Source of the DNA: Mytilus trossulus
Lineage: Eukaryota
NCBI RefSeq assembly: GCF_036588685.1
Contig: NC_086379.1
Location: 85,126,001-85,190,000 of the forward strand
DNA length: 64,000 bases
Direction of reading: 5' to 3'
Shown here: positions 10,501-63,754 of the stretch, in pieces
How the letters are laid out: each line of letters opens with the position of its first letter
Numbering within the stretch: position 1 is the stretch's first letter
Made by a program: the position numbers and the translations under genes
The notes under the pieces: generated by a model
Database searches by the model: none
What the model saw: the letters and a program-made list of their open reading frames with translations, nothing else
Told to the model about the DNA's origin: nothing

Positions 10501-13500
10501 AGTAAATTACCATGGGAACAGCAAAACAAGAGCTACAAGTAAGTTACCATTGTGATCAGTTAAACAAGACCTACAAGTAAATTACCATTGTGGTCAGTCA
10601 AACAAGATCTACAAGTAAATTACCATTGTGATCAGCAAAAAAAGATCTACAAGTAAATTACCATTGTTATCAGCCAAACAAGATCTACAAGTAAATTAAC
10701 ATTGTGATCAGCCAAACGAGATCTACAAGTAAATTACCATTGTGGTCAGCCAAACCAGACATACAAGTAAATTACCATTGTGATCAGAGAAACAAGAGCT
10801 ACAAGTAAATTACCATTGTGATCAGCAAAACAAGAGCTACAAGTAAATTACCATTGTGATCAGCCAAACAAGAGCTACAAGTAAATTACCATTGTGATCA
10901 GCAAAACAAGATCTACAAGTAAATTACCATTGTGATCAGCAAAACAAAATATACAAGTAAATTGCCATTGTGGTCAGCCAAACAAGAGCTTCAAGTAAAT
11001 TACCATTGTGATCAGCAAAACAAAATATTCAAGTAAATTGCTATTGTGATCAGCCAAACAAGATCTACAAGTAAATTACCATTGTGGTCAGCCAAACAAG
11101 ATCTACAAGTAAATTGCCATTGTGGTCAGCCAAACAAAATATACAAGTAAATTACCATTATGATCAGCCAAACAAGATCTACAAGTAAATTACCATTGTG
11201 ATCAGCAAAACAAAATATTCAAGTAAATTACCATTGTGATCAGCAAAACAAAATATACAAGTAAATTACCATTATGATCAGCCAAACAAGATCTACAAGT
11301 AAATTACCATTATGATCAGCCAAACAAGAGCTACAAGTAAATTATCATTGTGATCGGCAGATCAAAATATTCAAGTAAATTGCCATTGTGATCAGCCAAA
11401 CAAGATCTACAAGTAAATTACCATTGTGATCAGCCAAACAAGAGCTTCAAGTAAATTACCATTGTGATCAGCAAAACAAATTTCAAGTAAATTACCATTG
11501 TGATCAGCTAAACAAGAGCTACAATGTAATTACCATTGTGATCAGCCAAACAAGAGCTACAAGTAAATTACCATTGTGATCACCCAAACAAGATCTACAA
11601 GTTAATTACCATTGTGGTCAGCCAAACAAGATCTACAAATAAAAAACCATTGTGGTCAGCCAAACAAGATCTACAAATAAATTACCATTGCGGTCAGCCA
11701 AACAAGACCTACAAATAAAAAACCATTGTGGTCAGCCAAACAAGAGCTACAAGTAATTTACCATTGTGATCAGTTAAACAAGAGCTACAAGTAAATTACC
11801 ATTGTGGTCAGTCAAACAAGATCTACAAGTAAATTACCATTGTGATCAGCAAAAAAAGATCTACAAGTAAATTACCATTGTTATCAGCCAAACAAGATCT
11901 ACAAGTAAATTAACATTGTGATCAGCCAAACGAGATCTACAAGTAAATTACCATTGTGGTCAGCCAAACAAGAGATACAAGTAAATTACCATTGTGATCA
12001 GAGAAACAAGAGCTACAAGTAAATTACCATTGTGATCAGCAAAACAAGAGCTACAAGTAAATTACCATTGTGATCAGCCAAACAAGAGCTACAAGTAAAT
12101 TACCATTGTGATCAGCAAAACAAGATCTACAAGTAAATTACCATTGTGATCAGCAAAACAAAATATACAAGTAAATTGCCATTGTGGTCAGCCAAACAAG
12201 AGCTTCAAGTAAATTACCATTGTGATCAGCAAAACAAAATATTCAAGTAAATTGCTATTGTGATCAGCCAAACAAGATCTACAAGTAAATTACCATTGTG
12301 GTCAGCCAAACAAGATCTACAAGTAAATTGCCATTGTGGTCAGCCAAACAAAATATACAAGTAAATTACCATTATGATCAGCCAAACAAGATCTACAAGT
12401 AAATTACCATTGTGATCAGCAAAACAAAATATTCAAGTAAATTACCATTGTGATCAGCAAAACAAAATATACAAGTAAATTACCATTATGATCAGCCAAA
12501 CAAGATCTACAAGTAAATTACCATTATGATCAGCCAAACAAGAGCTACAAGTAAATTACCATTGTGATCGGCAGATCAAAATATTCAAGTAAATTGCCAT
12601 TGTGATCAGCCAAACAAGATCTACAAGTAAATTACCATTGTGATCAGCCAAACAAGATCTACAAGTAAATTACCATTGTGGTCAGCCAAACAAGAGCTGC
12701 AAGTAAATTACCATTGTGATCAGCAAAACAAATTTCAAGTAAATTACCATTGTGATCAGCTAAACAAGAGCTACAATGTAATTACCATTGTGATCAGCCA
12801 AACAAGAGCTACAAGTAAATTACCATTGTGATCACCCAAACAAGATCTACAAGTAAATTACCATTGTGGTCAGCCAAACAAGATCTACAAATAAATAACC
12901 ATTGTGGTCAGCCAAACAAGATCTACAAATAAATTACCATTGCGGTCAGCCAAACAAGAGCTACAAGTAAATTACCATTGTGGTCAGCCAAACAAGACCT
13001 ACAAGTAGGTTACCATTGTGATCAGCCAAACAAGAGTTTCAAGTAAATTACCATTGTGGTCAGCCAAACAAGATCTACAAATAAGTTACCATTGTGATCA
13101 GTCAAACAAGATCTACAAGTAAATTACCATTGTGATCAGCCAAACAAGAGCTACAAGTAAATTACCATTGTAATAAGAGAAACAAGAGCTAGAAGTAAAT
13201 TACCATTGTGGTCAGCCAAACAAAATATACAAGTAAATTACCATTGTGATCAGCCAAACAAGAGCTACAAGTCAATTACAATTGTGATCAGCCAAACAAG
13301 ATCTACAAGTAAATTACCATTGTGGTCAGTCAAACAAGATCTACAAGTAAATTACCATTGTGGTCAGCCAAACAATATCTACAAGTAAATTACCATTGTG
13401 ATCAGCCAAACAAGAGCTACAAGTAAATTACCATTGTGATCAGCCAAACAAGATCTACAAGTAAATTACCATTGTGGTCAGCCAAACAAGAGCTACAAGT

Positions 13501-14339
13501 AAATTATCATTGTGATCAGCCAAACAAGATCTACAAGTAAATTACCATTGTGATCAGCCAAACAAGATCTACAAGTAAATTACCATTGTGATCAGCCAAA
13601 TAAGATCTACAAGTAAATTACCATTGTGGTCAGCCAAACAAGATCTACAAGTAAATTACCATTGTGATCAGCCAAACAAGATCTACAAGTAAATTACCAT
13701 TGTGGTCAGCAAAACAAGATCTACAAGTAAATTACCATTATGATCAGCCAAACAAGATCTACAAGTTAATTACCATTGTGATCAGCCAAACAGGATCTAC
13801 AAGTAAATTACGATTGTGGTCAGCTAAACAAAATCTACAAGTAAATTACCATTGTGATCAGCTAAACAAGAGCTACAAGTAAATTACCATTGTGGTCAGC
13901 CAAACAAGAGCTACAAGTAAATTATCATTGTGATCAGCCAAACAAGATCTACAAGAAAATTACCATTGTGGTCAGCAAAACAAGATCTACAAGTAAATTA
14001 CCATTGTGGTCAACCAAACAAGATCTACAAGTAAATTACCATTGTGATCAGCCAAACAAGATCTACAAGTAAATTATTATTGTGATCAGCCAAACAAAAT
14101 ATACAAGTAAATTACCATTGTGGTCAGCCAAACAAGACCTACAAGTAAATTATCATTGTGATCAGCCAAACAAGATCTACAAGTAAATAACCATTGTGAT
14201 CAGCAAAACAAAATATTCAAGTAAATTACCATTGTGGTCAGAAAAACAAGAGCTACAAGTAAATTATCATTGTGATCAGCAAAACAAAATATACAAGTAA
14301 ATTACCATTGTGATCAGCTAAACAAGATCTACAAATAAG
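1595..14339. repeat. 38-bp satellite array, ~335 units, with higher-order periodicity
   Basis: Consensus AAATTACCATTGTGATCAGCCAAACAAGATCTACAAGT. Diagnostic variants recur at 570 bp (2276/2846) and 4099 bp (ccatgggaac at 6411/10510; identical ORFs at 5430/9529). Confidence 0.99.
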
Positions 14340-14610
14340 TTACAGCACATTTCAGTCAGTATGTAGCTAATGGTAATATCTTTAGTTAGCTTGCTTGTTA
14401 GCTGAACCGTGAAGTCATTGTTAGGTAAGGTAAACTTCCCTCCTTTAATAGTAGACTAGCCCAACAGATAAAATCTATCTCTCTGTAGGACTAAGCTACT
14501 ATTAAAGGAGGGAAGTTTACCTTACCTAACAATGACTTCACGGTTCAGCTAACAAGCAGGCTAACCAAAGATATTACCATTAGCTACATACTAACTGAAA
14601 TGTGCTGTAA
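14340..14610. mobile_element. 271-bp foldback/palindromic MITE
   Basis: Arms 14340-14454 and 14496-14610 are reverse complements with ~3 mismatches in 115 bp; direct repeat aataagtta on both flanks. Confidence 0.9.
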
Positions 14611-15357: not shown

Positions 15358-18300
15358 CATACTCATGATATCTTAAACATTGCTCTGCGCATGTCCCCAG
15401 TATAAGATAGGATACTCATGATATCTTAAACATTGCTCTGCGCATGTCCCCAGTATAAGATAGGATACTCATGATATCTTAAACATTGCTCTGCGCATGT
15501 CCCCAGTATAAGATAGGATACTCATGATATCTCAAACATTGCTCTGCCACATGTCCCTAGTATAGGATATGATACTCACGAGATCTTAAACATTGCTCTG
15601 CTACATGTCCCCAGTATAAGATAGGATACTCATGACATCTTAAACATTGCTCTACCACATGTCCCTAGTATAGGATAGGATACTCATGACATCTTAAACA
15701 TTGCTCTGCCACATGTCCCTAGTATAAGATAGGATACTCATGACATCTTAAACATTGCTCTGCCACATGTCCCCAGTATAGGATAGGATACTCATGACAT
15801 CTTAAACATTGCTCTACCACATGTCCCTAGTATAGGATAGGATACTCATGACATCTTAAACATTGCTCTGCCACATGTCCCCAGTATAGGATAGGATACT
15901 CATGACATCTTAAACATTGCTCTACCACATGTCCCTAGTATAAGATAGGATACTCATGACATCTTAAACATTGCTCTGCCACATGTCCCCAGTATAAGAT
16001 AGGATACTCATGACATCTTAAACATTGCTCTACCACATGTCCCTAGTATAGGATAGGATACTCATGACATCTTAAACATTGCTCTGCCACATGTCCCCAG
16101 TATAGGATAGGATACTCATGACATCTTAAACATTGCTCTGCCACATGTCCCTAGTATAAGATAGGATACTCATGACATCTTAAACATTGCTCTGCCACAT
16201 GTCCCCAGTATAAGATAGGATACTCATGACATCTTAAACATTGCTCTGCCACATGTCCCTAGTATAAGATAGGATACTCATGACATCTTAAACATTGCTC
16301 TGCCACATGTCCCTAGTATAGGATAGGATACTCATGAGATCTTAAACATTGCTCTGCCACATGTCCCTAGTATAAGATAGGATACTCATGACATCTTAAA
16401 CATTGCTCTGCCACATGTCCCCAGTATAAGATAGGATACTCATGACATCTTAAACATTGCTCTGCCACATGTCCCCAGTATAAGATAGGATACTCATGAC
16501 ATCTTAAACATTGCTCTGCCACATGTCCCTAGTATAAGATAGGATACTCATGACATCTTAAACATTGCTCTGCCACATGTCCCTAGTATAAGATAGGATA
16601 CTCATGACATCTTAAACATTGCTCTGCCACATGTCCCCAGTATAAGATAGGATACTCATGACATCTTAAACATTGTTCTGCCACATGTCCCCAGTATAAG
16701 ATAGGATACTCATGACATCTTAAACATTGCTCTGCCACATGTCCCTAGTATAGGATATGATACTCATGACATCTTAAACATTGCTCTGCCACATGTCCCT
16801 AGTATAGGATATGATACTCATGACATCTTAAACATTGCTCTGCCACATGTCCCTAGTATAAGATAGGATACTCATGACATCTTAAACATTGCTCTGCCAC
16901 ATGTCCCCAGTATAAGATAGGATACTCATGACATCTTAAACATTGCTCTGCTACATGTCCCTAGTATAGGATAGGATACTCATGACATCTTAAACATTGC
17001 TCTGCCACATGTCCCTAGTATAGGATAGGATACTCATGAGATCTTAAACATTGCTCTGCCACATGTCCCTAGTATAAGATAGGATACTCATGACATCTTA
17101 AACATTGCTCTGCCACAGGTCCCCAGTATAAGATAGGATACTCATGACATCTTAAACATTGCTCTGCCACATGTCCCTAGTATAGGATAGGATACTCATG
17201 ACATCTTAAACATTGCTCTGCCACATGTCCCTAGTATAGGATAGGATACTCATGACATCTTAAACATTGCTCTGCCACATGTCCCTAGTATAGGATAGGA
17301 TACTCATGACATCTTAAACATTGCTCTGCCACATGTCCCCAGTATAGGATATGATACTCATGACATCTTAAACATTGCTCTGCCACATGTCCCCAGTATA
17401 AGATAGGATACTCATGACATCTTAAACATTGCTCTGCCACATGACCCTAGTATAAGATAGGATACTCATGACATCTTAAACATTGCTCTGCCACATGTCC
17501 CTAGTATAGGATAGGATACTCATGACATCTTAAATATTGCTCTGCCACATGTCCCTAGTATAAGATAGGATACTCATGACATCTTAAACATTGCTCTGCC
17601 ACATGTCCCTAGTATAAGATAGGATACTCATGACATCTTAAACATTGCTCTGCCACATGTCCCTAGTATAGGATAGGATACTCATGACATCTTAAACATT
17701 GCTCTGCCACATGTCCCTAGTATAAGATAGGATACTCATGAGATCTTAAACATTGCTCTGCCACATGTCCCTAGTATAAGATAGGATACTCATGACATCT
17801 TAAACATTGCTCTGCCACATGTCCCCAGTATAAGATAGGATACTCATGACATCTTAAACATTGCTCTGCCACATGTCCCTAGTATAGGATAGGATACTCA
17901 TGACATCTTAAACATTGCTCTGCCACATGTCCCTAGTATAGGATAGGATACTTATGACATCTTAAACATTGCTCTGCCACATGTCCCTAGTATAGGATAG
18001 GATACTCATGACATCTTAAACATTGCTCTGCCACATGTCCCCAGTATAGGATATGATACTCATGACATCTTAAACATTGCTCTGCCACATGTCCCCAGTA
18101 TAAGATAGGATACTCATGACATCTTAAACATTGCTCTGCCACATGACCCTAGTATAAGATAGGATACTCATGACATCTTAAACATTGCTCTGCCACATGT
18201 CCCTAGTATAGGATAGGATACTCATGACATCTTAAATATTGCTCTGCCACATGTCCCTAGTATAAGATAGGATACTCATGACATCTTAAACATTGCTCTG

Positions 18301-19935
18301 CCACATGTCCCTAGTATAAGATAGGATACTCATGACATCTTAAACATTGCTCTGCTACATGTCCCCAGTATAAGATAGGATACTCATGACATCTTAAACA
18401 TTGCTCTGCTACATGTCCCTAGTATAAGATATGATACTCATGACATCTTAAACATTGCTCTGCCACATGTCCCTAGTATAAGATAGGATACTCATGACAT
18501 CTTAAACATTGCTCTGCCACATGTCCCTAGTATAAGATAGGATACTCATGACATCTTAAACATTGCTCTGCCACATGTCCCCAGTATAAGATAGGATACT
18601 CATGACATCTTAAACATTGTTCTGCCACATGTCCCCAGTATAAGATAGGATACTCATGACATCTTAAACATTGCTCTGCCACATGTCCCTAGTATAGGAT
18701 ATGATACTCATGACATCTTAAACATTGCTCTGCCACATGTCCCTAGTATAGGATAGGATACTCATGACATCTTAAACATTGCTCTGCCACATGTCCCTAG
18801 TATAGGATAGGATACTCATGACATCTTAAACATTGCTCTGCCACATGTCCCTAGTATAAGATAGGATACTCATGACATCTTAAACATTGCTCTGCCACAT
18901 GTCCCTAGTATAGGATATGATACTCATGACATCTTAAACATTGCTCTGCCACATGTCCCTAGTATAAGATAGGATACTCATGACATCTTAAACATTGCTC
19001 TGCCACATGTCCCTAGTATAAGATAGGATACTCATGACATCTTAAACATTGCTCTGCCACATGTCCCTAGTATAAGATAGGATACTCATGACATCTTAAA
19101 CATTGCTCTGCTACATGTCCCCAGTATAAGATAGGATACTCATGACATCTTAAACATTGCTCTGCTACATGTCCCTAGTATAAGATAGGATACTTATGAC
19201 ATCTTAAACATTGCTCTGCTACATGTCCCTAGTATAAGATAGGATACTCATGACATCTTAAACATTGCTCTGCCACATGTCCCTAGTATAAGATAGGATA
19301 CTCATGACATCTTAAACATTGCTCTGCCACATGTCCCCAGTATAAGATAGGATACTCATGACATCTTAAACATTGCTCTGCCACATGTCCCCAGTATAAG
19401 ATAGGATACTCATGACATCTTAAACATTGCTCTGCCACATGTCCCTAGTATAAGATAGGATACTCATGACATCTTAAACATTGCTCTGCCACATGTCCCT
19501 AGTATAGGATAGGATACTCATGACATCTTAAACATTGCTCTGCCACATGTCCCTAGTATAGGATAGGATACTCATGACATCTTAAACATTGCTCTGCCAC
19601 ATGTCCCTAGTATAGGATATGATACTCATGACATCTTAAACATTGCTCTGCCACATGTCCCCAGTATAGGATAGGATACTCATGACATCTTAAACATTGC
19701 TCTACCGCATGTCCCTAGTATAGGATATGATACTAATGAGATCCTTACCATAGCTCTGCCTCCGCATGTCCCCAGTATAGGATAGAAATGATATTAGATC
19801 TTAAACATTGCTCTATCACATGTCCCAAGTCATAGGATAGGACACATAAGAGATCTTCAACATAGCTCTGCCGCCGCATGTCCCCGGTATAGGATAGAAG
19901 TGATATTAGATCTTAAACATTGCTCCACCACATGT
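15358..19935. repeat. 54-bp satellite array, ~84 units
   Basis: Consensus GATACTCATGACATCTTAAACATTGCTCTGCCACATGTCCCYAGTATARGATAG. The first units are 53 bp and the last are degenerate. Variants recur at 702 bp (13 units). Confidence 0.99.
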
Positions 19936-20704
19936 CTTTGGTATAGGAATTCCGATCAAGGTTACAATTGCAACTCTTTCGAATACCAAAGATCTGATTT
20001 TTTGAACAACTGTCCATCGTACACGTTTATGATGATGCACCAGTCTTTAAGTAGAATAATAGTCCGTCAAATGACGATGTTTCAATCTTTAAGCAGAACA
20101 ACCCTCTGTCACATGATAATGTTTCAATCTTTAAGCTAAGTAATCGTCCGTCATATGATCATGTTTTATTCTAGAAGCAGAACAACCATCCGTCATATAA
20201 TTTTGTTTCCGTCTTTCAGCAGAACGATCGCCCGTCTCATGATTCTGTTTTAGTTTTTCAGCAGAACATCCGTTCCTCAACGATAATATACAATTCCTTA
20301 AACAAAAAAATAAACCGTCCGTCATACGTTAATGTTTCAATCTTTGACCAGAACATTCGTTTGCCATATAATGATGTGCCAGTCTTTAAGCAGAACCACT
20401 GCCTGTCTCATAATTATGTTTCCGTCTTTTCGCAGAACAACCGTCCGTCATATGACCACATCCCAGTATTTAAACAGAAAAGCCGCCCTTTATATGATTG
20501 CGTTTCAGTATTTACGTCGATCAAATAATAATAATGTACCATTGTTAAAGCGGGATCAACAATCCGTTTCATTTTCAGTCATTAAATTGTACCATTCTTT
20601 AAGCAGGACCAACTGCATGCCATATCATAAAACAAATTTTTTTAAGCAAGAACAACTGTCCGCCCTATGATAATGTACCAACCATTAAAAAGGAACAACT
20701 TCCC

Positions 20705-30665: not shown

Positions 30666-31427
30666 GACAGTGTTTTGACAGGATAAGCTGCCGAAGACGC
30701 ATCACTGTCAGCGGCAGATCTGCTTCAGTCCGTGAAAAGCTATAAGCCAAAAGATACACGACAAACTAATCATGATATTATACCTGTACCATTTATAAAC
30801 TTAGACAAATGTGTAACATATCCTGTTATCAGTTACAACAATAATTGCACTTTTTTGGTGCTAGTAGACATTTTCGATAATTCAGTAGAATTTAGTTTTA
30901 GTTTTAAAATTTCAAAAGTATGCAAGCTTTAAATTTAATGATCATAATTGATAAACAAGTTCGGCTTTTCAATACATTCAAATGTTCAGTTTTCAAAATA
31001 TTTTGTTCTATAAGATATTTGGCAACAGATAAAATGCTTGAATCTAACATGCATTCATAAAAAAAGTATACATAATCAGGCTTTTTCAAAATGCTTATAT
31101 TAATAAGTATAATTAAGAAAGTTAATATTCAAACTTTTTTTAAAATTAATTTAGATGAACTTAATGATTTTGTGAGAAGACACTCAAAAGACAACATAAC
31201 ATAGCATTGGTAGCAATATTCGAGGAAAGATACAAAGTGGAATATTGCAACAATATCATCCCTCGAGTAAACATTGGATAAACACTCTAGACCGAATACT
31301 ATCGAATATGAAGTGGCATGAGAAATCCTTCCAAAGCAGCACTACACTAGGATCAGTCTGAGATCAGGGACAAGGTTATCATGGTTATATAACATCACTT
31401 ACCAAGCCGATCAACGATTAGTGTACT

Positions 31428-32390
31428 ATGAATAATTCATCTTCGAATCTTGACACGACATTTTCTTCTATTTTGATTTCTTTTATGATTTTACAACAGT
31501 TGATATTTGTTGTTGCCTTTATTGGTAATAGTCTGGTTATATGGATATTTCTTACAAGGCTGAAACTTAAATCGAGCACGAATAGATTTATAGTAAGTCT
31601 TGCATTGGCTGACGTGCTGACGGGAATAGTTACGGGTGTCCAGATATTCTACTTTGTGTACCCGGTAATGAACGACAATATGGTGACATGTTTCCTCCGA
31701 TATTTATCGATTAACTACACGACACAGGTTTCTCAAATGACTGTAATGTTTACAACTTTTGACAGATACGTCGCCATCTGCCATCCACATCACTATGTTA
31801 GTGTAATGACGAGAAAAGTAGCCATTATTTTGTCCGTGTTACCATGGGTACTATCTTTAGCATCCGTAGGTTCACCATTGTTAGGTTGGCATATTTGGGA
31901 ACGAGGATGTCGATGTGAATATTTGTTAATATTTGAAAGAGGATACTATCTGACGTCATCAGTTATAACGTACTCTTTCAGCATACTAACGTTTATAATG
32001 TACATTTTTATACTAAAAACAGCATGGCGATATTACTCTAGAGTTAAACCAGTTGGTGGTGACAGTAGCTGTAATCATGGTACAAATAAGTCCAAAACAA
32101 TGGAACGTGATGTACGGAATGCCAAAGTAACGGGTGTTGTAACCCTAGCATTTTCAGTTTGTTGGTTGCCATTCATGACATTCCCTTTTCAGAAAGGAAT
32201 TGGTATAGACCAAATATCAGACACAGGTCTAACGGTTATGAACTGGCTTGTTTTCTTAGGAATGTTAAACAGCATTGTTAATCCATTTATTTATGCTTGG
32301 AAGCGACGGGACTTTAGTAAAGAATGTAAAAGGACATTTGGATGCTTTAAAAATCAGGAGGATATGTCTCAAACATCGGTAGAGTTTTAA
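31428..32390 (+). CDS. Intronless class A (rhodopsin-like) GPCR, 320 aa, adenosine/MECA-cluster-like orphan
   Basis: Seven hydrophobic segments; GN (TM1), LAxxD (TM2), C3.25, DRY (TM3), W (TM4), CWLP (TM6), NPFIY (TM7); N-terminal NxS sites. Position 3.32 is Ile, so it is not an aminergic receptor. Confidence 0.96.
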   Translation: MNNSSSNLDTTFSSILISFMILQQLIFVVAFIGNSLVIWIFLTRLKLKSSTNRFIVSLALADVLTGIVTGVQIFYFVYPVMNDNMVTCFLRYLSINYTTQVSQMTVMFTTFDRYVAICHPHHYVSVMTRKVAIILSVLPWVLSLASVGSPLLGWHIWERGCRCEYLLIFERGYYLTSSVITYSFSILTFIMYIFILKTAWRYYSRVKPVGGDSSCNHGTNKSKTMERDVRNAKVTGVVTLAFSVCWLPFMTFPFQKGIGIDQISDTGLTVMNWLVFLGMLNSIVNPFIYAWKRRDFSKECKRTFGCFKNQEDMSQTSVEF

Positions 32391-40628: not shown

Positions 40629-41378
40629 TCAAAAGCTTTCAAGATCAGTCATGACCAGATGTGTTTCAAATAATTTGTTCAAAACCACTAAAAATTGGTT
40701 GACAAACATTTGTTTGATTCGAATAAATTCTTCTTCATCTTCTGTCCCATAAAAGTCTGAGCAGTACGATATCTTCAAAGCCTTCAGATCTACCAATGAA
40801 GATAATGTCTCACTCAGCTGTAAACAAACAGAGGAAACTAAGGAATTCTGGGATAGATTCAGGTACAGAATGGAATGTAATAAGGAAATGTAAGGCAACA
40901 GGCGAAGAATACCACCATCATCTAGTTTACTGTCCTCTAACTCAAGCACTAGTAAGGTAGACTTAACTTCTTCTAATAGACGTCCTAAACTTCCACAACA
41001 TAATGTCAGTGTGTTTCCACCTAAATCAATGTGTTGTAAGGCTTTAGTATGGTGTGATGTTGATAGGTATCTGATATCTGATTCCGTCAGACCACATCCT
41101 GCCAGACGAAGATGTTGTAACGGCTGCTGTGTACCACTGATAAGCTGTCGTAGCTTGTACTTCAGTCTGTTACTACTTAGATCCAGTCTGCTTAGGTTTG
41201 GTAAGGAGGACAGTGTTTTACCAAGGACCTCTGTTGTAGAGTCACTCTGGTACACAGTTATACTGTTACACGAAAGGTCTAAGGCACATAAGTTTGTAAA
41301 CTTCTCAAGTGTAGGGGCCAGGTTACAAAAACTCTCACAGTTAATAGAGTTGTACTTCAATCTAATTCCTGTCAAGTA
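40629..41378 (-). CDS. LRRC14: LRRC14/PRAME-like protein, coding exon 4 (leucine-rich repeats, stop)
   Basis: Acceptor ttttattttcag|TAC, phase 0, 750 nt. LRRs LCALDLSCN, LSRLDLSSN, LQHLRLAGC, LQHIDLGGN, ILYLNLSQN. Confidence 0.9.
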   Translation of the reverse strand, partial: YLTGIRLKYNSINCESFCNLAPTLEKFTNLCALDLSCNSITVYQSDSTTEVLGKTLSSLPNLSRLDLSSNRLKYKLRQLISGTQQPLQHLRLAGCGLTESDIRYLSTSHHTKALQHIDLGGNTLTLCCGSLGRLLEEVKSTLLVLELEDSKLDDGGILRLLPYISLLHSILYLNLSQNSLVSSVCLQLSETLSSLVDLKALKISYCSDFYGTEDEEEFIRIKQMFVNQFLVVLNKLFETHLVMTDLESF

Positions 41379-41583: not shown

Positions 41584-41759
41584 CTGTGGATTAATCTGTC
41601 CAAGAAGTATGTTAAGCTTAGGTTCCCCCAAACATGTAGCATCGAGTTTCTGTAAACACATACACAGTTTACTATCAGTAAATCCTGATACCTTCAAGGC
41701 TTTACTTAGTTCTGTCAGCGTCTGGTCTGCAGCTACAAAAGCATCAAGTTTGACTAGAA
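41584..41759 (-). CDS. LRRC14: LRRC14/PRAME-like protein, coding exon 3
   Basis: Acceptor tttatttcag|TT (phase 1), donor CAG|gtatat (phase 0), 176 nt; ILVKLDAFV...LGQINPQ. Confidence 0.85.
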
Positions 41760-45841: not shown

Positions 45842-46003
45842 TTGAAGTGTCAGGCAGGAACTGATCAGCCATCATTAAACGATCTGGTACAGGCTGGGGC
45901 AATAACTGTACAGCTTTATTATACATGTTGACCATCACATTCTGACGAGCTTCATTATAGGACAACATACAATGTGTAGCCAGATAGTACAGGATTACCT
46001 CCG
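45842..46003 (-). CDS. LRRC14: LRRC14/PRAME-like protein, coding exon 2 (absent from the ORF track)
   Basis: Acceptor ctatttttag|CG, donor TCAA|gtatgt, 162 nt, phase 1-1. Reads PEVILYYLATHCMLSYNEARQNVMVNMYNKAVQLLPQPVPDRLMMADQFLPDTS and joins exon 1 and exon 3 in frame. Confidence 0.82.
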
Positions 46004-47156
46004 CTAAAAATAGATAGGGAATTACCTCAATTACAATCAGATTACAGAGGATAGGACAGCATACAATGTGTAGCCAGATAGTACAGGATTACTTCCGCTA
46101 AAAATAGATAAGGAATTACCTCAATTACAATCAGATTACAGAGGAAATGACAATGTACAATGTGTAGCCAGATAGTACAGGATTACCTCCGCTAAAAATA
46201 GATAGGGAATTACCTCAATTACAATCAGATTACAGAGGATAGGACAGCATACAATGTGTAGCCAGATAGTACAGGATTACCTCCGCTAAAAATAGATAGG
46301 GAATTACCTCAATTACAATCAGATTACAGAGGAAATGACAATGTACAATGTGTAGCCAGATAGTACAGGATTACCTCCGCTGAAAATAGATAGGAATTAC
46401 CTCTGTTACAATCAGATTACAGAGGATATGACAACATACAATGTGTAGCCAGATAGTACAGGATAACCTCCGCTAAAAATAGATAAGGAATTACCTCAGT
46501 TACAATCAGATTACAGAGGAAATGACAATGTACAATGTGTAGCCAGATAGTACAGGATTACCTCCGCTAAAAATAGATAGGGAATTACCTCAATTACAAT
46601 CAGATTACAGAGGATACAACAACATACAATGTGTAGCCAGATTGTACAGGATTACCTCCGCTAAAAATAGATAAGGAATTACCTCAATTACAATCAGATT
46701 ACAGAGGATACAACAACATACAATGTGTAGCCAGATAGTACAGGATTACCTCCGCTAAAAATAGATAAGGAATTACCTCAATTACAATCAGATTACAGAG
46801 GATACAACAACATACAATGTGTAGCCAGATTGTACAGGATTACCTCCGCTAAAAATAGATAGGGAATTACCTCAATTACAATCAGATTACAGAGGAAATG
46901 ACAATATACAATGTGTAGCCAGATAGTACAGGATTACCTCCGCTGAAAATAGATAGGAATTACCTCAATTACAATCAGATTACAGAGGATATGACAACAT
47001 ACAATGTGTAGCCAGATAGTACAGGATTACCTCCGCTAAAAATAGATAAGGAATTACCTCAATTACAATCAGATTACAGAGGATAGGACAACATACAATG
47101 TGTAGCCAGATAGTACAGGATTACCTCCGCTAAAAATAGATAGGAATTACCTCAAT
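45957..47156. repeat. 94-bp satellite, left block (~13 units), first unit overlapping exon 2
   Basis: Unit GACAAYATACAATGTGTAGCCAGATAGTACAGGATTACCTCCGCTAAAAATAGATARGGAATTACCTCAATTACAATCAGATTACAGAGGAWAK (93-94 bp). Confidence 0.98.
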
Positions 47157-49295
47157 GAGGGACATTGGTGAAGATTATCCCCACTTAATTCCAGGTGGCA
47201 CTGTGGTAGATCAGGTCCAACATCTGTTTGTATGATAAGAAAGCCAGCATTCATTGCCACATATGATACACCAATATGTGTATGCTGATAAGTTTTAATT
47301 AAAATTAATTCTTTTGTACTATTTTTATCTTACTCACTATTTAGTATATAAATGATAAATGTGTAAAATTTTGAATACATTCCGTCAGTGACTTTCTATA
47401 CTTTACTTAGTATAGTAAGTCCCTGATTGCCGGAACTGAAAAAAAACCTCAGGAGTGCATGTGTATTATCATGCAGTGGAAGAAAAATGAGAGAGTGTTT
47501 TTTTTTTAACATACTCACAATTAAAGATATAAATTAAATGAATGTATTTCTCTCTTTATTAATTTTTTGTTAAAATGGAATGTAAAAGTGTTGTTAGATA
47601 CATGATATAATAATCAAACTGTTTACACAAATATATAGATATAGTATGATTTTTTTATTTGTGTTATTCTTTAACTAAATTTCATTAATTAAACTGGTAG
47701 AAATCTTTATACTTGTATATATGACAAATTAAAAACAAAACCATGCTTTCAATTTCAAATTTGATGGGATTTTTTTCCATTAAGATACTTTAATTTTTTT
47801 AAATGAGAATCAAATAATAGACATTAGAATTTTGGAAATGACTGCACATTTTACATCAAAATTAATAGAGTTATATCTGAAACAAATAGGCTTAAATACT
47901 TTTCAATACAGCTCATCAATTTCTGAAATACCTGCGACTGGGAACAAAAAATAACTAATTTAATTAAAGTGTCATACCAAAATGAAAAGAGCAAGGAATC
48001 ACCTACAAAATGTAACATAAATAAAGATCTCAGTATTATAGAGTATCTGTGTGACTGTGTTGCAGGTTACTAATACGGGCAAAAAAATAATAAAAATGAT
48101 AGGTCACCTCACATTTTCTCAAGCTACAGGTTGTGACAAAATGACACATTTTGTATGGATTAAACAGGAAAAAACACCATTTTGTGATTAGAAACTAAAC
48201 AAAATGATAGAATTGTTAAATACTTAAGGAAAAGTTGGCTTTCAGACAATGTTTTGTGAATATAAAAAAAAAAGATAGGGTCACCGTACGGTCTTTCCGG
48301 CTAAAATACAAAATAGGAAAATTTCATGAAGAATCCTTCAGAGAATGCACTGTTTTAGAGTTACCTCCCCTTAAAATGCCAATTTAAATTTTTTAAAATC
48401 AACCAGAAATAATCAGCATTTGCAAAACTATTAATATGTATAACTTATAATCTTATAAATTGGTTCTTTTAAATGAAAATTCACATTAAATATCTGCATT
48501 CCTGCATCAAATTTTGCTAGCTTGATAGAAAATATGGACCTTTGATTCTCTGTTTTTTACAATCCAAGATGGAGGAAGACACCCATACCACCTTAAATGG
48601 TGTTTGGCCAACAATAATGATTATTACTTTCAAATTACTTTTTCAAAAAACTTTAAAGAATTTTATAATTCATTGCTGAAATAAAAAAAACTTCTTTTTA
48701 TGAAAAATATTTCAAACAGGCAGTTCTTGACGGATATCATATAATCTAAGATTGTTAAATGTTTATATTTTTTTTTTAAATTACAAATTAATTTTATTGA
48801 ATATTTTTCACTTCAGTTTTCATTTGTCAAAACTTTTAACTGATTTATGATCGCTCTGCAAAAAATAAAGATCACAGCAAACTAAACTGTTTTTGCTAGC
48901 TGTCCATTCTTTTAGTTCTATAGTATATGCATTAGCATTATATTTTCGTTATTTAACATTTTAATGCTGATATTTTCATATTTTATTTAATGCAAATTGA
49001 TAGTAAAAATGAAAAAAAGATAGCAAAATAAGTAAAAAAAAAAAAAAAATATTGAAAAAGAAAATAATTCCCCCAAGTCATATATCATACATGTTATAGG
49101 ACAATCAATTCTATGTGCTTTTCATATTTTTTCCTTTTTGTTGCAAATGTCCATTTCTTATTTTAAAAAAATAAAAACATATGTCCATCTTTATACGACA
49201 CCTCCAGGTATAAACACCAGTTAAAGATATTAAGTAATAAAAAACTTCTTATTATAATTTGTATACAAATATAAACAATGTAATTCTCAATAGGA
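47157..49295. mobile_element. ~2.1-kb AT-rich insertion splitting the satellite; includes a Kolobok-like end (acacccataccaccttaa, ~48579-48596)
   Basis: Abrupt interruption of the array; ctcaat at both junctions; no ORFs. Confidence 0.55.
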
Positions 49296-52200
49296 TACAG
49301 ATAGTACAGGATTACCTCCGCTAAAAATAGATAAGGAATTACCTCAATTACAATCAGATTACAGAGGAAATGACAACATACAATGTGTAGCCAGATAGTA
49401 CAGGATTACCTCCGCTGAAAATAGATAAGGAATTACCTCAATTACAATCAGATTACAGAGGAAATGACAATATACAATGTGTAGCCAGATAGTACAGGAT
49501 TACCTCCGCTGAAAATAGATAGGAATTACCTCAATTACAATCAGATTACAGAGGAAATGACAATGTACAATGTGTAGCCAGATAGTACAGGATTACCTCC
49601 GCTGAAAATAGATAGGAATTACCTCAATTACAATCAGATTACAGAGGATATGACAATATACAATGTGTAGCCAGATAGTACAGGATTACCTCCGCTAAAA
49701 ATAGATAAGGAATTACCTCAGTTACAAACAGATTACAGAGGATATGACAACATACAATGTGTAGCCAGATAGTACAGGATTACCTCCGCTAAAAATAGAT
49801 AGGAAATTACCTCAATTACAATCACATTACAGAGGATATGACAATGTACAATGTGTAGCCAGATAGTACAGGATTACCTCCGCTAAAAATAGATAAGGAA
49901 TTACCTCAGTTACAAACAGATTACAGAGGAAATGACAATATACAATGTGTAGCCAGATAGTACAGGATTACCTCCACTAAAAATAGATAGGAATTACCTC
50001 AATTACAATCAGATTACAGAGGAAATGACAATATACAATGTGTAGCCAGATAGTACAGGATTACCTCTGCTAAAAATAGATAAGGAATTACCTCAATTAC
50101 AATCAGATTACAGAGGAAATGACAATATACAATGTGTAGCCAGATAGTACAGGATAACCTCCGCTAAAAATAGATAAGGAATTACCTCAATTACAATCAG
50201 ATTACAGAGGATACAACAATATACAATGTGTAGCCAGATAGTACAGGATTACCTCCGCTAAAAATAGATAAGGAATTACCTCAATTACAATCAGATTACA
50301 GAGGAAATGACAATATACAATGTGTAGCCAGATAGTACAGGATTACCTCTGCTAAAAATAGATAGGGAATTACCTCAATTACAATCAGATTACAGAGGAA
50401 ATGACAATATACAATGTGTAGCCAGATAGTACAGGATTACCTCTGCAAAAAATAGATAGGAATTACCTCTGTTACAATCAGATTACAGAGGATATGACAA
50501 TATACAATGTGTAGCCAGATAGTACAGGATTACCTCCGCTAAAAATAGATAAGGAATTACCTCAGTTACAAACAGATTACAGAGGATATGACAACATACA
50601 ATGTGTAGCCAGATAGTACAGGATTACCTCCGCTAAAAATAGATAGGAAATTACCTCAATTACAATCACATTACAGAGGATATGACAATGTACAATGTGT
50701 AGCTAGATAGTACAGGATTACCTCCGCTAAAAATAGATAAGGAATTACCTCAGTTACAAACAGATTACAGAGGAAATGACAATATACAATGTGTAGCCAG
50801 ATAGTACAGGATTACCTCCACTAAAAATAGATAGGAATTACCTCAATTACAATCAGATTACAGAGGAAATGACAATATACAATGTGTAGCCAGATAGTAC
50901 AGGATTACCTCTGCTAAAAATAGATAAGGAATTACCTCAATTACAATCAGATTACAGAGGAAATGACAATATACAATGTGTAGCCAGATAGTACAGGATA
51001 ACCTCCGCTAAAAATAGATAAGGAATTACCTCAATTACAATCAGATTACAGAGGATACAACAATATACAATGTGTAGCCAGATAGTACAGGATTACCTCC
51101 GCTAAAAATAGATAAGGAATTACCTCAATTACAATCAGATTACAGAGGAAATGACAATATACAATGTGTAGCCAGATAGTACAGGATTACCTCTGCTAAA
51201 AATAGATAGGGAATTACCTCAATTACAATCAGATTACAGAGGAAATGACAATATACAATGTGTAGCCAGATAGTACAGGATTACCTCTGCAAAAAATAGA
51301 TAGGAATTACCTCTGTTACAATCAGATTACAGAGGAAATGACAATATACAATGTGTAGCCAGATAGTACAGGATTACCTCCGCTAAAAATAGATAGGGAA
51401 TTACCTCAATTACAATCAGATTACAGAGGAAATGACAATATACAATGTGTAGCCAGATAGTACAGGATCACCTCCACTAAAAATAGATAGGAATTACCTC
51501 AATTACAATAAGATTACAGAGGAAATGACAGCATACAATGTGTAGCCAGATAGTACAGGATTACCTCCGCTAAAAATAGATAGGAATTACCTCAATTACA
51601 ATCAGATTACAGAGGAAATGACAATATACAATGTGTAGCCAGATAGTACAGGATTACCTCCGCTAAAAATAGATAGGGAATTACCTCAGTTACAATCAGA
51701 TTACAGAGGAAATGACAATATACAATGTGTAGCCAGATAGTACAGGATTACCTCTGCTAAAAATAGATAGGAATTACCTCAATTACAATCAGATTACAGA
51801 GGAAATGACAATATATATACAATGTGTAGCCAAATAGTACAGGATTAACTCCGCTAAAAATAGATTAGAAATTACCTCTGTTATAATCAGATTACAGAGG
51901 AAATGACAATATACAATGTGTAGCCAGATAGTACAGGATTACCTCTGCTAAAAATAGATAGGAATTACCTCAATTACAATCAGATTACAGAGGAAATGAC
52001 AATATATATACAATGTGTAGCCAAATAGTACAGGATTAACTCCGCTAAAAATAGATTAGAAATTAATTACCTCAATTACAATCAGATTACAGAGGAAATG
52101 ACAATATACAATGTGTAGCCAAATAGTACAGGATTACCTCCGCTAAAAATAGATAGGAATTACCTCAATTACAATCAGATTACAGAGGAAATGACAATAT

Positions 52201-55200
52201 ATATACAATGTGTAGCCAAATAGTACAGGATTAACTCCGCTAAAAATAGATTAGAAATTACCTCAATTACAATCAGATTACAGAGGAAATGACAATGTAC
52301 AATGTGTAGCCAGATAGTACAGGATTAACTCCGCTAAAAATAGATTAGAAATTACCTCTGTTATAATCAGATTACAGAGGAAATGACAATATACAATGTG
52401 TAGCCAGATAGTACAGGATTACCTCTGCTAAAAATAGATAGGGATTACCTCAATTACAATCAGATTACAGAGGAAATGACAATATACAATGTGTAGTCAG
52501 ATAGTACAGGATTATCTCCACTAAAAATAGATAGGAAATTACCTCAATTACAATCAGATTACAGAGGAAATGACAATATACAATGTGTAGTCAGATAGTA
52601 CAGGATTACCTCTGCTTAAAATAGATAAGGAATTACCTCAATTACAATCAGATTACAGAGGAAATGACAGTATACAATGTGTAGCCAGATAGTACAGGAT
52701 TACCTCCGCTAAAAATAGATAGGGATTACCTCAATTACAATCAGATTACAGAGGAAATGACAACATACAATGTGTAGCCAGATAGTACAGGATTACCTCC
52801 GCTGAAAATAGATAAGGAATTACCTCAATTACAATCAGATTACAGAGGATACAACAACATACAATGTGTAGCCAGATAGTACAGGATTACCTCTGCTAAA
52901 AATAGATAGGAAATTACCTCAATTACAATCAGATTACAGAGGAAATGACAATATACAATGTGTAGCCAGATAGTACAGGATTACCTCTGCTTAAAATAGA
53001 TAAGGAATTACCTCAGTTACAATCAGATTACAGAGGAAATGACAGTATACAATGTGTAGCCAGATAGTACAGGATTACCTCCGCTAAAAATAAATAGGAA
53101 TTATGTCAATTACAATCAGATTACAGAGGAAATGACAATATACAATGTGTAGTCAGATAGTACAGGATTACATCCGCTAAAAATAGATAGGAATAACCTC
53201 AATTACAAGCAGATTACAGAGGATACAACAACATACAATGTGAAGCCAGATAGTACAGGATTACCTCTGCTAAAAATAGATAGGGAATTACCTCAATAAC
53301 AATCAGATTACAGAGGAAATGACAGTATACAATGTGTAGCCAGATAGTACAGGATTACCTCCGCTAAAAATAAATAGGAATTACCTCAATTACAATCAGA
53401 TTACAGAGGAAATGACAATATACAATGTGTAGTCAGATAGTACAGGATTACCTCCGCTGAAAATAGATAGGAATTACCTCAATTACAATCAGATTACAGA
53501 GGATAGGACAATTTACAATGTGTAGTCAGATAGTACAGGATTATATCCGCTAAAAATAGATAGGAATTACCTCAATTACAATCAGATTACAGAGGAAATG
53601 ACAATGTACAATGTGTAGCCAGATAGTACAGGATCACCTCCACTAAAAATAGATAGGAATTACCTCAATTACAATCAGATTACAGAGGAAATGACAATAT
53701 ACAATGTGTAGTCAGATAGTACAGGATTACCTCTGCTTAAAATAGATAAGGAATTACCTCAATTACAATCAGATTACAGAGGAAATGACAGTATACAATG
53801 TGTAGCCAGATAGTACAGGATTACCTCCGCTAAAAATAGATAGGGATTACCTCAATTACAATCAGATTACAGAGGAAATGACAACATACAATGTGTAGCC
53901 AGATAGTACAGGATTACCTCCGCTGAAAATAGATAAGGAATTACCTCAATTACAATCAGATTACAGAGGAAATGACAGTATACAATGTGTAGCCAGATAG
54001 TACAGGATTACCTCCGCTAAAAATAGATAGGGATTACCTCAATTACAATCAGATTACAGAGGAAATGACAACATACAATGTGTAGCCAGATAGTACAGGA
54101 TTACCTCCGCTAAAAATAGATAGGGATTACCTCAATTACAATCAGATTACAGAGGATACAACAACATACAATGTGTAGCCAGATAGTACAGGATTACCTC
54201 CGCTAAAAATAGATAGGAATTACCTCAATTACAATCAGATTACAGAGGAAATGACAATATACAATGTGTAGCCAGATAGTACAGGATTACCTCTGCTAAA
54301 AATAGATAGGAATTACCTCAATTACAATCAGATTACAGAGGAAATGACAATATACAATGTGTAGCCAGATAGTACAGGATTACCTCTGCTAAAAATAGAT
54401 AGGAAATTACCTCAATTACAATCAGATTACAGAGGAAATGACAATATACAATGTGTAGCCAGATAGTACAGGATTACCTCTGCTTAAAATAGATAAGGAA
54501 TTACCTCAGTTACAATCAGATTACAGAGGAAATGACAGTATACAATGTGTAGCCAGATAGTACAGGATTACCTCCGCTAAAAATAAATAGGAATAACGTC
54601 AATTACAAGCAGATTACAGAGGATACAACAACATACAACGTGAAGCCAGATAGTACAGGATTACCTCTGCTAAAAATAGATAGGGATTACCTCAATTACA
54701 ATCAGATTACAGAGGAAATGACAATATACAATGTGTAGTCAGATAGTACAGGATTACATCCGCTAAAAATAGATAGGAATTACCTCAATTACAAGCAGAT
54801 TACAGAGGAAATGACAATGTACAATGTGTAGCCAGATAGTACAGGATCACCTCTGCTAAAAATAGATAGGGAATTACCTCAATAACAATCAGATTACAGA
54901 GGAAATGACAGTATACAATGTGTAGCCAGATAGTACAGGATTACCTCCGCTAAAAATAAATAGGAATTACCTCAATTACAATCAGATTACAGAGGAAATG
55001 ACAATATACAATGTGTAGTCAGATAGTACAGGATTACCTCCGCTGAAAATAGATAGGAATTACCTCAATTACAATCAGATTACAGAGGATAGGACAATAT
55101 ACAATGTGTAGTCAGATAGTACAGGATTACATCCGCTAAAAATAGATAGGAATTACCTCAATTACAATCAGATTACAGAGGAAATGACAATGTACAATGT

Positions 55201-56106
55201 GTAGCCAGATAGTACAGGATCACCTCCACTAAAAATAGATAGGAATTACCTCAATTACAATCAGATTACAGAGGAAATGACAATGTACAATGTGTAGCCA
55301 GATAGTACAGGATCACCTCCACTAAAAATAGATAGGAATTACCTCAATTACAATCAGATTACAGAGGAAATGACAATATACAATGTGTAGTCAGATAGTA
55401 CAGGATTACCTCCGCTAAAAATAGATAGGAATTACCTCAATTACAATCAGATTACAGAGGAAATGACAATGTACAATGTGTAGCCAGATAGTACAGGATC
55501 ACCTCCACTAAAAATAGATAGGAATTACCTCAATTACAATCAGATTACAGAGGAAATGACAATATACAATGTGTAGTCAGATAGTACAGGATTACCTCTG
55601 CTAAAAATAGATAAGGAATTACCTCAATTACAATCAGATTACAGAGAAAATGACAATATACAATGTGTAGTCAGATAGTACAGGATTACCTCTGCTAAAA
55701 ATAGATAGGGAATTACCTCAATTACAATCAGATTACAGAGGAAATGACAATATACAATGTGTAGTCAGATAGTACAGGATTACCTCTGCTAAAAATAGAT
55801 AGGGAATTACCTCAATTACAATCAGATTACAGAGGAAATGACAATATACAATGTGTAGCCAGATAGTACAGGATTACCTCCGCTAAAAATAGATAGGGAA
55901 TTACCTCAATTACAATCAGATTACAGAGGAAATGACAATATACAATGTGTAGCCAGATAGTACAGGAAAACCTCCACTAAAAATAGATAGGGATTACCTC
56001 TGTTATAATCAGATTATAGTGGATATATATATATATTACAACATATAATAAGAAGCCAAATAGTACAGGATTATCTCTGCTAAGAAAAAAGATAAGGAAT
56101 AACCTA
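49296..56106. repeat. 94-bp satellite, right block (~72 units)
   Basis: Same unit; 844-bp (9-unit) duplication (caatcacatt at ~49819 and ~50663); degenerates ~90 bp from the exon 1 donor. Confidence 0.98.
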
Positions 56107-56192
56107 TTACTCAGAGTTTAGTTAAAAACATATTTCTTTCTTAAGTTAAAATTTAAGAAAACAGAGATATTATTATAACTAGCAGTACTTAC

Positions 56193-56649
56193 GAGTTGGA
56201 AATCCTGACATATCCAGATATCTGAGTTTTGTTGGAGTTTTATTTTTAACGCATTCAAGGAAAGTATGAGCCAAACATGTGGTGTATCTCAAACATTGCC
56301 TGGTTACTTCAGATAAATATAACATATCGTATAATGGCCTGACAGAAGTAAACACGTTTGGTACCAGTTTCTGTAGTGACAAAGTTTCAAATGGCCAATG
56401 AGACAACAACACATCAACAGCCCGATCTTTGTTACATATCAATGCTTGTTGCATCAATACAATACAAAGCTCTTTGGGTATGTAGTTTATAGCCTGAGCT
56501 GTCATGGTGGAATCTTGTATGATGTAACGAGAACACAATGTTGTCAAAGATGCTACACTCTTCGGCTGTTGTCCGATAGCTGGTGGAGAACAGAGGTCTA
56601 AAGGATACACAACACCCTGGTAATACTCATACCATAGTGATGTATCCAT
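56193..56649 (-). CDS. LRRC14: LRRC14/PRAME-like protein, coding exon 1
   Basis: ATG at 56649; BC-box-like SLTTLCSRYII, cullin-2-box-like IPKELCIVLM, PRAME-family WPFETLSL and KLRYLDMSG; donor C|gtaagt (phase 1), 457 nt. Confidence 0.88.
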
Positions 56650-56719
56650 TCTCTATACACTAGAAGTTCTTTCTCTTATAAGGGTGTATCTATTCTCAAT
56701 ATAATAAAAATTTGTCCTT

Positions 56720-57390
56720 TCTATAATGATGTGGGTTTTTCAAATAACAATGTGTCCCTTTTCTAAAAATGATGTGTTCCTTCTCTTAAAATGATGGGTT
56801 CCTCCTCTAATGATGTGTTCCTTTTCTTAAAATGATGTGTTCCTTCTCTAATAATAATGTGTTCCTTTTCTTATAATGATGTATTCCTTCTCTAATAATG
56901 ATATGTTCCTTCTCTTATAATGATGTGTTCCTTCTCTAATAATGATATGTTCCTTTTCTTGTAATGATGTGTTCCTTCTCTTATAATGATGTGTTCCTTC
57001 TCTTAAAATGATGGGTTCCTCCTCTAATGAGGTGTTCCTTTTCTTAAAATGATGTGTTCCTTCTCTAATAATAATGTGTTCCTTTTCTTATAATGATGTA
57101 TTCCTTCTCTAATAATGATATGTTCCTTCTCTTATAATGATGGGTTCCTTCTCTAATAATGATATGTTCCTTTTCTTATAATGATGTGTTCCTTCTCTTA
57201 TAATGATGTGTTCCTTCTCTAATAATGATGTGTTCCTTCTCTAATAATGATGTGTTCCTTCTCTAATAATGATATGTTCCTTTTCTTATAATGATGTGTT
57301 CCTTCTCTTATAATGATATGTTCCTTTTCTTATAATGATGTGTTCCCTCTCTTATAATCATGTGTTCCTTCTCTTATAATGATGCGTTTC
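56720..57390. repeat. 22-bp minisatellite (~30 units) just upstream of the LRRC14-like start codon
   Basis: TAATGATGTGTTCCTTCTCTTA units. Confidence 0.95.
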
Positions 57391-62655: not shown

Positions 62656-62933
62656 TATTAATATTTGCTAATTTTAAAAAGATGATGTTTTGATGACGTC
62701 GCATGATGACGTTTTCGTACATTTTGCTTTTCAGTAAACAGTCCATCTGTTGATAAATACTGTGAACGTTTTGTGTATATCTTGACCAATATGTAAATAT
62801 TATTATTATACAAAACTGTTAATACATGCAAAATCTTCGATAAGAAGGAAATAAAGTTAATATATATATATGTTGAAAGAAGTGCATAGTATCAAATCAT
62901 AAAAATACAAATTTTTAGTCTCTAGGAAATCTT

Positions 62934-63754
62934 TAAAGAAAGATAAGAAGTTAGCAATATCCTTTAACTCTACTTTCTGCTATATAGATTACGTTCTTTC
63001 ACTAAACAATTCAAAATTTGGTGACTATGTGGAACGAATCTATCCCTTCGAATTGGAAATAAAGGATACTACAGATACAGTTAAGTCGGCTTCATATCTT
63101 GACTTACATCTAGAAATTGACTATGAGGGTCGGTTGAAAACAAAACTATACGACAAAAGAGATGATTCCAGCTTTCCAATTGTGAACTTTCCATTTCTAA
63201 GTAGCAACATTCCAGCAGCACCTGCATACGGGGTACATATCTCCCAATTGATACGATATTCCCGTGCTTGCATTTCCTATCATGATTTTCTTGATAGAGG
63301 GTAACTGCTCACAAGGAAGCTATTAAACTAAGACTTCCAAATGGTGAAGTTGAAATCATCCCTTTGTACATTTTACGGACGCCATCACGAGTTGTTTGAC
63401 CGTTATTGAATAACTGTTTCACAAATGATATCGGATATGATCCTTACGTCGTAACTACAATCCCCTTCCCTTTCATGAATGTGACCTACCGAATTAAGAC
63501 TATTTACCAGATTTGTAATCACATAAGCAACACGACGGGTGCCACATGTGGAGCAGGATCTGCTTACCCTTCAGGAGCACCTGAAATCACACCTAGTTTT
63601 TGGTGGAGTTCGTGTTGTTTATTCTTTAGTTTTCTATGTTGTGTCGTGTGCGCTATTGTTTTTCTGTTTGTCTTTTTCATTTTAAGCCTTGGCGTTGTCA
63701 GTTTATTTTAGAATTATGAGTTTGACTGTCCCTTTGGTATCTTTCGTCCCTCTT
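62934..63754 (+). mobile_element. 5'-truncated Penelope-like retroelement, RT C-terminal part (pseudogenised)
   Basis: FNSTFCYIDY (degenerate YIDD)...SASYLDLHLEID..GRLKTKLYDKRDD.SFPIVNFPFLSSNIPAAPAYGVHISQLIRYSRAC; premature stops; clean insertion into the foldback arm. Confidence 0.85.

What the first reader, a model, noticed from the sequence alone, without database searches (positions are those of the whole stretch)
46004..56080. Each decoy unit is a ready-made 72-nt poison exon
Seen: besides the acceptor, each unit has two donor-like GAG|GTAAT motifs. Acceptor to the second donor (ttgag|gtaatt) is 47+25 = 72 nt and phase 1-1 like the true exon, but it reads ...ML SYPL* or ...IL SFPL* with an in-frame TAA. 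Only ~22 nt separate that donor from the next acceptor, too short for an intron, so adjacent units cannot be chained. Inference: any decoy use yields a premature-stop mRNA, so NMD could hide errors or the array could act as a dosage rheostat.
Basis: partly seen in the sequence, partly recalled or inferred. Interest (0 to 1): 0.7.

Follow-up and report, generated by a model that had tools for sequence, protein, structure and literature searches.

The report
Splice-junction "mirage" repeat, unused poison exon
An intron of a mussel gene holds 85 extra copies of an intron-exon junction, most shaped like a 72-base exon with a stop codon, but the assembled RNA examined skips them all, so this is likely a harmless by-product of a repeat type already known from lancelets.

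Summary
The sequence observation holds. Intron 1 of a mussel LRRC14-like gene (minus strand) carries 85 decoy copies of a 93/94-nt unit. 77 of 85 have AG, a GT 72 nt later and an in-frame TAA. The donor pairs with the genome's own U1 about as well as two real donors, so it is not background. The functional reading is not supported. The unit is the last 47 nt of the intron plus the first 47 nt of exon 2. Donor 1 is the conserved Glu-Val-Ile codons. Donor 2 lies inside exon 2's working 3' splice region. A stop is expected by chance (40-83%). The poison signals vary as much as the rest of the unit. In 4 of 4 runs laid on exon 1, one contig joins it straight to true exon 2. Limits: contigs drop rare isoforms, and those animals may lack the array. 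This is an acceptor-type 'mirage' minisatellite, described in amphioxus, where cryptic use of such units was already raised. The scan noted similar arrays at other loci of this genome (unchecked). A small leak to decay is not excluded.

The parts
56193..56649 (-). LRRC14-like coding exon 1 (ATG to phase-1 donor CTC|GTAAGT)
   Evidence: RNA contigs cover it and leave it at 56193
56080..56192 (-). Unique 113-nt start of intron 1, ending in a degenerate copy of the unit's intronic half
   Evidence: alignment
55977..56079 (-). Diverged edge unit (103 nt; 82-nt pseudo-exon)
49304..56079 (-). Upstream mirage block, 73 decoy acceptors; the last unit (acceptor 49320) is cut by the transposon
47154..49303 (.). 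Dispersed transposon-like insertion with terminal inverted repeats in other copies; one repeat is lost here; nested second element at about 48080-48593
46004..47153 (-). Downstream mirage block, 12 decoy acceptors
46026..46097 (-). Last 72-nt pseudo-exon (TAA at 46044-46042); too close to the true acceptor to be joined to exon 2
46036..46040 (-). CTGAT, predicted branch point of true exon 2 (A at -34), inside the pseudo-exon
   Evidence: Only YTRAY match in the last 60 intron bases; consensus recalled, use not shown
46004..46025 (-). 22 nt from second donor GT to the true acceptor AG (pyrimidine tract of exon 2)
45842..46003 (-). True exon 2 (162 nt); its first 47 nt are the exonic half of the unit and hold donor-like GAG|GTAATC at +5
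41584..41759 (-). Exon 3
   Evidence: Joints in RNA contigs of 3 runs
40629..41378 (-). Exon 4 (leucine-rich repeats, stop codon)

Best explanation
The array is a minisatellite made of the last 47 bases of intron 1 and the first 47 bases of exon 2 of a mussel LRRC14-like gene, and the 72-base stop-containing 'exon' in each copy is likely an unused by-product of that duplication. Shown: the unit's make-up, 85 decoy copies, and normal exon 1-exon 2 joining in RNA contigs. Inferred: the array grew by unequal crossing-over or slippage. Inferred: only the last copy is defined as an exon, because it alone continues into the other 115 bases of exon 2 and a donor that overlaps no acceptor. In each decoy the downstream donor sits between the predicted branch point and the AG of the next copy, where U1 would compete with the branch-point and pyrimidine-tract factors. 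Rare mis-splicing would give premature-stop RNA that decay would likely remove, which would help the array be tolerated but is not a function.
For: The four-exon model gives a 514-aa protein identical at 514 of 514 residues to a database LRRC14-like protein labelled Mytilus trossulus. In 4 of 4 runs (3 studies) a contig joins 56193 to 43 nt of exon-2 start and runs on into sequence found only in true exon 2. In X1, X3 and X6 the exon-2 piece starts exactly at 46003 and is joined to exon 3. Donor 1 encodes E-V-I, present in 7 of 8 aligned homologues. Donor 2 also lies 22 nt before the true acceptor. Chance of a premature stop is 0.83 for a random 10-60-nt extension and 0.40 at fixed 25 nt. Poison signals are not spared from change. 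Marks of turnover: diverged edge unit, 59 distinct sequences among 83 units, a repeated block of about 9 units, a transposon that lost one end. The array lies about 224 kb from a contig end with TTAGGG repeats nearby, among other long minisatellites. Amphioxus mirages have the same build and reportedly splice normally.
Against: Donor 2 is a credible donor: -6.7 kcal/mol with U1, against -7.0 and -7.2 for exons 1 and 3 and -2.8 for true exon 2. It is not unusually buried in predicted structure (median unpaired 0.49 versus 0.41-0.60). 77 intact copies multiply any small per-copy leak. The TAA is invariant in 83 of 83 aligned units, though p=0.24. The RNA evidence is assembled contigs, which drop rare variants, taken after any decay, from other animals that differ from the window at several bases and may carry fewer or no repeats. 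The steric explanation is untested.
Confidence: 0.8

Rival explanations
1. Unselected but measurable leak: each intact unit is used rarely, the sum diverts a sizeable share of transcripts to nonsense-mediated decay, and long alleles lower expression.
For: 77 of 85 units intact; donor in the top 2.5% of background GT sites by U1 pairing; stop far upstream of later junctions. CBS 844ins68 is reported to give traces of a second transcript (PMC1334203 passage).
Against: One normal contig across the junction in 4 of 4 runs. Amphioxus mirages reportedly give no aberrant mRNA. Donor 2 overlaps the next acceptor's signals.
Confidence: 0.14
2. Selected, regulated poison-exon array acting as a dosage rheostat.
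For: Frame-matched 72-nt length in 80 of 84 and a stop in 84 of 84.
Against: No extra conservation of donor, stop or acceptor. A poison exon has no need to keep frame. Both donors also flank the true acceptor. The unit matched nowhere else in this genome (lower bound). No inclusion seen.
Confidence: 0.03
3. Stepwise (recursive-like) removal of the 10-kb intron through decoy acceptors and the +5 donor.
For: AG-CGGAG|GT geometry, with 88-89 nt to the next acceptor.
Against: A step ending at the normal acceptor would leave 5 extra bases and a frameshift; contigs show a clean join. A trace-free route would need the weak GAG acceptor at +5 (inference).
Confidence: 0.02
4. The copy number is an assembly artefact.
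For: No DNA reads were laid on the array.
Against: 59 distinct unit sequences among 83, block-wise duplications and an inserted transposon.
Confidence: 0.01

Closest known systems
Amphioxus 'mirage' minisatellites, acceptor type (globin BflGb6; also Adh3, troponin C, PGBD5). PMC3087553: abstract and section 16 passages; PMC3902484: section 17 passage
   Same: Tandem copies of an intron 3' end plus the start of the next exon, inside the intron; authentic copy attached to the rest of the exon; homogenised core with diverged edge; normal mRNA. PMC3087553 already notes that units hold AG/GT signals that could give aberrant transcripts and that a unit could become an exon.
   Different: A mollusc; 85 copies against 3-6 for BflGb6; a regular 72-nt acceptor-to-donor spacing with a stop; array split by a transposon.
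Poison exons (definition after Carvill and Mefford 2020, as quoted in PMC8819188 section 4.3; passages)
   Same: Would add a premature stop upstream of later junctions.
   Different: No inclusion seen, no conservation shown, and derived from a copy of the gene's own junction.
Human F7 intron 7 37-bp VNTR (PMC1557585; abstract and outline only)
   Same: Boundary-spanning repeat with functional but silent pseudo-sites.
   Different: Donor copies downstream of the true site, the first copy wins; here acceptor copies lie upstream and the last wins.
Human CBS 844ins68 (PMC1334203; passages)
   Same: An insertion gives an alternative splice site; mRNA mostly normal with traces of another transcript. 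That it duplicates the intron 7/exon 8 junction is recalled, not read here.
   Different: One extra copy, not an array.

Membership tests
Mirage minisatellite | Tandem repeat whose unit spans an intron-exon boundary | tested here: met
   Unit = 47 intron + 47 exon-2 bases, 85 extra copies; boundary confirmed by RNA joints
Mirage minisatellite | Authentic copy is the one continuous with the rest of the exon and is the one in mRNA | tested here: met
   4 of 4 runs join exon 1 to true exon 2; array status of those animals unknown
Mirage minisatellite | Concerted evolution with diverged boundary units | tested here: met
   Near-identical core, diverged first unit and degenerate upstream tail
Mirage minisatellite | Length instability between haplotypes | not testable with these tools
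   One haplotype held; internal block duplications only suggest it
Poison exon | Premature stop upstream of later junctions | tested here: met
   84 of 84 with stop; 16, 178 and 354 nt before junctions
Poison exon | Usable splice sites on both sides | tested here: inconclusive
   Acceptor nearly identical to the true one; donor strong by U1 pairing but overlaps the next 3' splice region; no species-trained model
Poison exon | Alternatively spliced into transcripts | tested here: inconclusive
   Not in the contigs across the junction in 4 runs; contigs drop rare variants
Poison exon | Conserved | tested here: not met
   Within the array, 6 of 15 signal columns vary versus 29 of 78 others, p=0.69 (low power); no cross-species intron could be fetched
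Poison exon | Product rises when decay is blocked | not testable with these tools
   No such data

The most novel reading that the evidence does not exclude
A copy-number-variable mirage whose units are complete stop-containing exons: leak adds up with copy number, so allele length tunes LRRC14-like expression through nonsense-mediated decay, and mussel mirages form a class of repeat-length expression variants.
Probability: 0.1. Interest if true: 0.6.

Novelty: new member of a known kind. Interest (0 to 1): 0.2.

Why it matters
As it most likely stands, it is one more large example of a known repeat type. It is a handy natural test of how the spliceosome picks the last of 86 near-identical acceptors. 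It would matter more if inclusion scaled with copy number, since that would turn a tolerated repeat into an expression dial. The four paper searches aimed at this listed no paper on mirages in mussels; they cover open-access text only.

Tried and rejected
No RNA holder was listed as such (kinds are guesses); I treat the contigs as RNA-derived because they skip introns at GT..AG ends. Raw-read run X23 (miRNA library, 13% read) had no depth in the exon bins and says nothing. No contig lay on the decoy part 46004-46110 in X1, X3, X6 (bin depth equals the exon share) or on 55899-56162; absence in contigs is not evidence, and 80 joints were not shown. 6 contig runs and 1 raw run of the 24 listed were laid. 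Orthologous intron DNA was not obtained: pattern scan of metagenomes 0 hits, protein scan 3 weak, short matches not followed. Two exon-2 fragments of more distant relatives have different residues ahead of the acceptor: weak hint only. A truncated poison-type protein was sought among 14 of 20 cluster members read (plus the representative) and 8 short homologues: none; five members were not listed. The idea that donor 2 is an older copy of donor 1 is borderline (513 of 10000 shuffles, 269 of 10000 real 47-mers score as high) and left open. RNA structure hiding donor 2 is not supported. No species-trained splice model could be built; U1 pairing stood in for it. No supplements were read; PMC3087553 additional file 4 (BflGb6 unit alignment) may bear on how close the amphioxus units come to this build.

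Full report
Host gene. The region is intron 1 of a minus-strand gene with coding exons at 56649-56193, 46003-45842, 41759-41584 and 41378-40629. Joined, they give 514 residues, identical at 514 of 514 to a database protein labelled LRRC14-like, Mytilus trossulus, and 501-509 of 514 to six other Mytilus entries. Exon 4 carries leucine-rich repeats. Intron 1 is 10,189 nt, phase 1. Genomic read-through proteins of more distant relatives also stop matching just after the exon 1 end, so the intron position looks old.

Observation. Tandem Repeats Finder reports two 94-bp blocks, 45957-47156 and 49298-56023. Parsing gives 85 decoy starts ahead of the true acceptor. 83 of 85 keep AG; 84 have the second-donor position and 83 of these keep GT; 80 of 84 are 72 nt; 84 of 84 have an in-frame stop; 77 of 85 are intact in all respects; the gap to the next acceptor is 21-22 nt in 83 of 84. 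Two refinements: the +5 donor is 88-89 nt from the next acceptor, so chaining is not ruled out by geometry, and three 5-nt pieces would stay in frame.

What the unit is. It is the last 47 nt of intron 1 plus the first 47 nt of exon 2. The first donor-like motif is the codons for Glu-Val-Ile, seen in 7 of 8 aligned homologues, and it sits at +5 of the true exon too. The 25 'new' bases and the second donor are the real 3' splice region of exon 2. The only YTRAY match in the last 60 intron bases has its A at -34, and the GT is at -22 (the branch consensus is recalled). So the donor of one pseudo-exon lies between the predicted branch point and AG of the next acceptor.

Is the donor background? 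No. With the U1 5' end taken from this genome, GAG|GTAATT gives -6.7 kcal/mol. The real donors give -7.0, -2.8 and -7.2. Only 47 of 1866 GT sites in 31,676 nt of non-array DNA do as well, about one per 670 nt. This is a pairing score, not a trained model. Predicted structure does not hide the site.

Is the stop special? Not very. Extending the 47 exonic bases by 10-60 random non-array bases gave a premature stop or frameshift in 83% of 20,000 trials, and in 40% at a fixed 25 bases. Across 83 aligned units (edge and transposon-broken units left out), 35 of 93 columns vary. Donor 2 varies at 4 of 9, the TAA at 0 of 3 (p=0.24), and all poison signals at 6 of 15 against 29 of 78 (p=0.69). Units are not independent and the test is weak, but it gives no sign of selection.

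RNA. Laid on exon 1 and the first units, 4 of 4 runs (X6, X13, X15, X17; 3 studies) show one contig across the junction: exon 1 ends at 56193, 43 nt match the unit start, and the contig continues with bases found only in true exon 2. In X6 the same 647-nt contig runs exon 1, exon 2, exon 3 with no insert. In X1 and X3 the exon-2 piece begins at 46003 and joins exons 3 and 4. The normal isoform dominates in these samples. Against over-reading: contigs drop rare variants, steady-state RNA has already passed decay, and these animals differ from the window and may lack the array.

History (inferred). The first unit is diverged, and the 113 unique intron bases before it end in a degenerate copy of the unit tail. 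A block of about nine units recurs. The 2.1-kb spacer is a dispersed element, 83-92% alike to copies elsewhere for most matches, with inverted ends in two copies examined; here one end is replaced by array sequence. The unit matched only this locus in the genome (lower bound). The array is about 224 kb from the end of C7, where TTAGGG repeats occur, and the window holds other long minisatellites. This fits ordinary repeat turnover.

Mechanism. Most likely only the last copy is recognised, because it alone carries the rest of exon 2 and a free donor, while each decoy's donor overlaps the next acceptor's signals. This step is inferred. Any slip would give stop-containing RNA with the stop 178 and 354 nt before later junctions, a likely decay target; decay in mussels was not examined here. 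That would lower the cost of the array without being its purpose.

Comparison. The build matches the amphioxus 'mirages'. PMC3087553 (abstract and section 16 passages) describes BflGb6 repeats of an intron end plus exon 2 start, normal splicing, units with AG/GT signals that could give aberrant transcripts, and possible exonisation of a unit. PMC3902484 (one passage) agrees. The name reached me through earlier scan notes and a paper search in the same turn; I checked the papers but not those other loci. It would work like a poison exon only if used; use is unshown and conservation was not found, so I do not file it there.

Verdict. Real feature, known kind, functional claim unsupported, small leak open. 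Interest 0.2.

Noticed in passing
L014 9143-10000 (G000:C7, just right of the window): An 84-bp repeat (5.4 copies) with an acceptor-like site, then a 34-bp repeat with a donor-like AAG|GTAAGA: possibly further mirages.
   Followed up: no
window 1595-14343 and 15359-19936: Very long 38-bp (336 copies) and 54-bp (85 copies) minisatellites; the 38-mer holds a donor-like CAA|GTAAAT; no host exon identified.
   Followed up: partly
window 56653-56731: Contigs in X6 and X17 show a second 5' leader form with 60 other letters and a loose end at 56731: alternative 5' UTR structure or allele.
   Followed up: no
window 56750-57388: 22-bp minisatellite (29 copies) just upstream of the start codon; contigs run over 56760 into its edge.
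   Followed up: no
window 31422-32390 (+): Single open frame for a rhodopsin-family GPCR.
   Followed up: no
window 62903-63304 (+): Open frame that looks like the end of a retroelement reverse transcriptase region (resemblance recalled, not searched).
   Followed up: no
G000:C14 about 50.06-50.22 Mb: Tandem cluster of at least 42 U1 snRNA genes, most about 1.3 kb apart.
   Followed up: no
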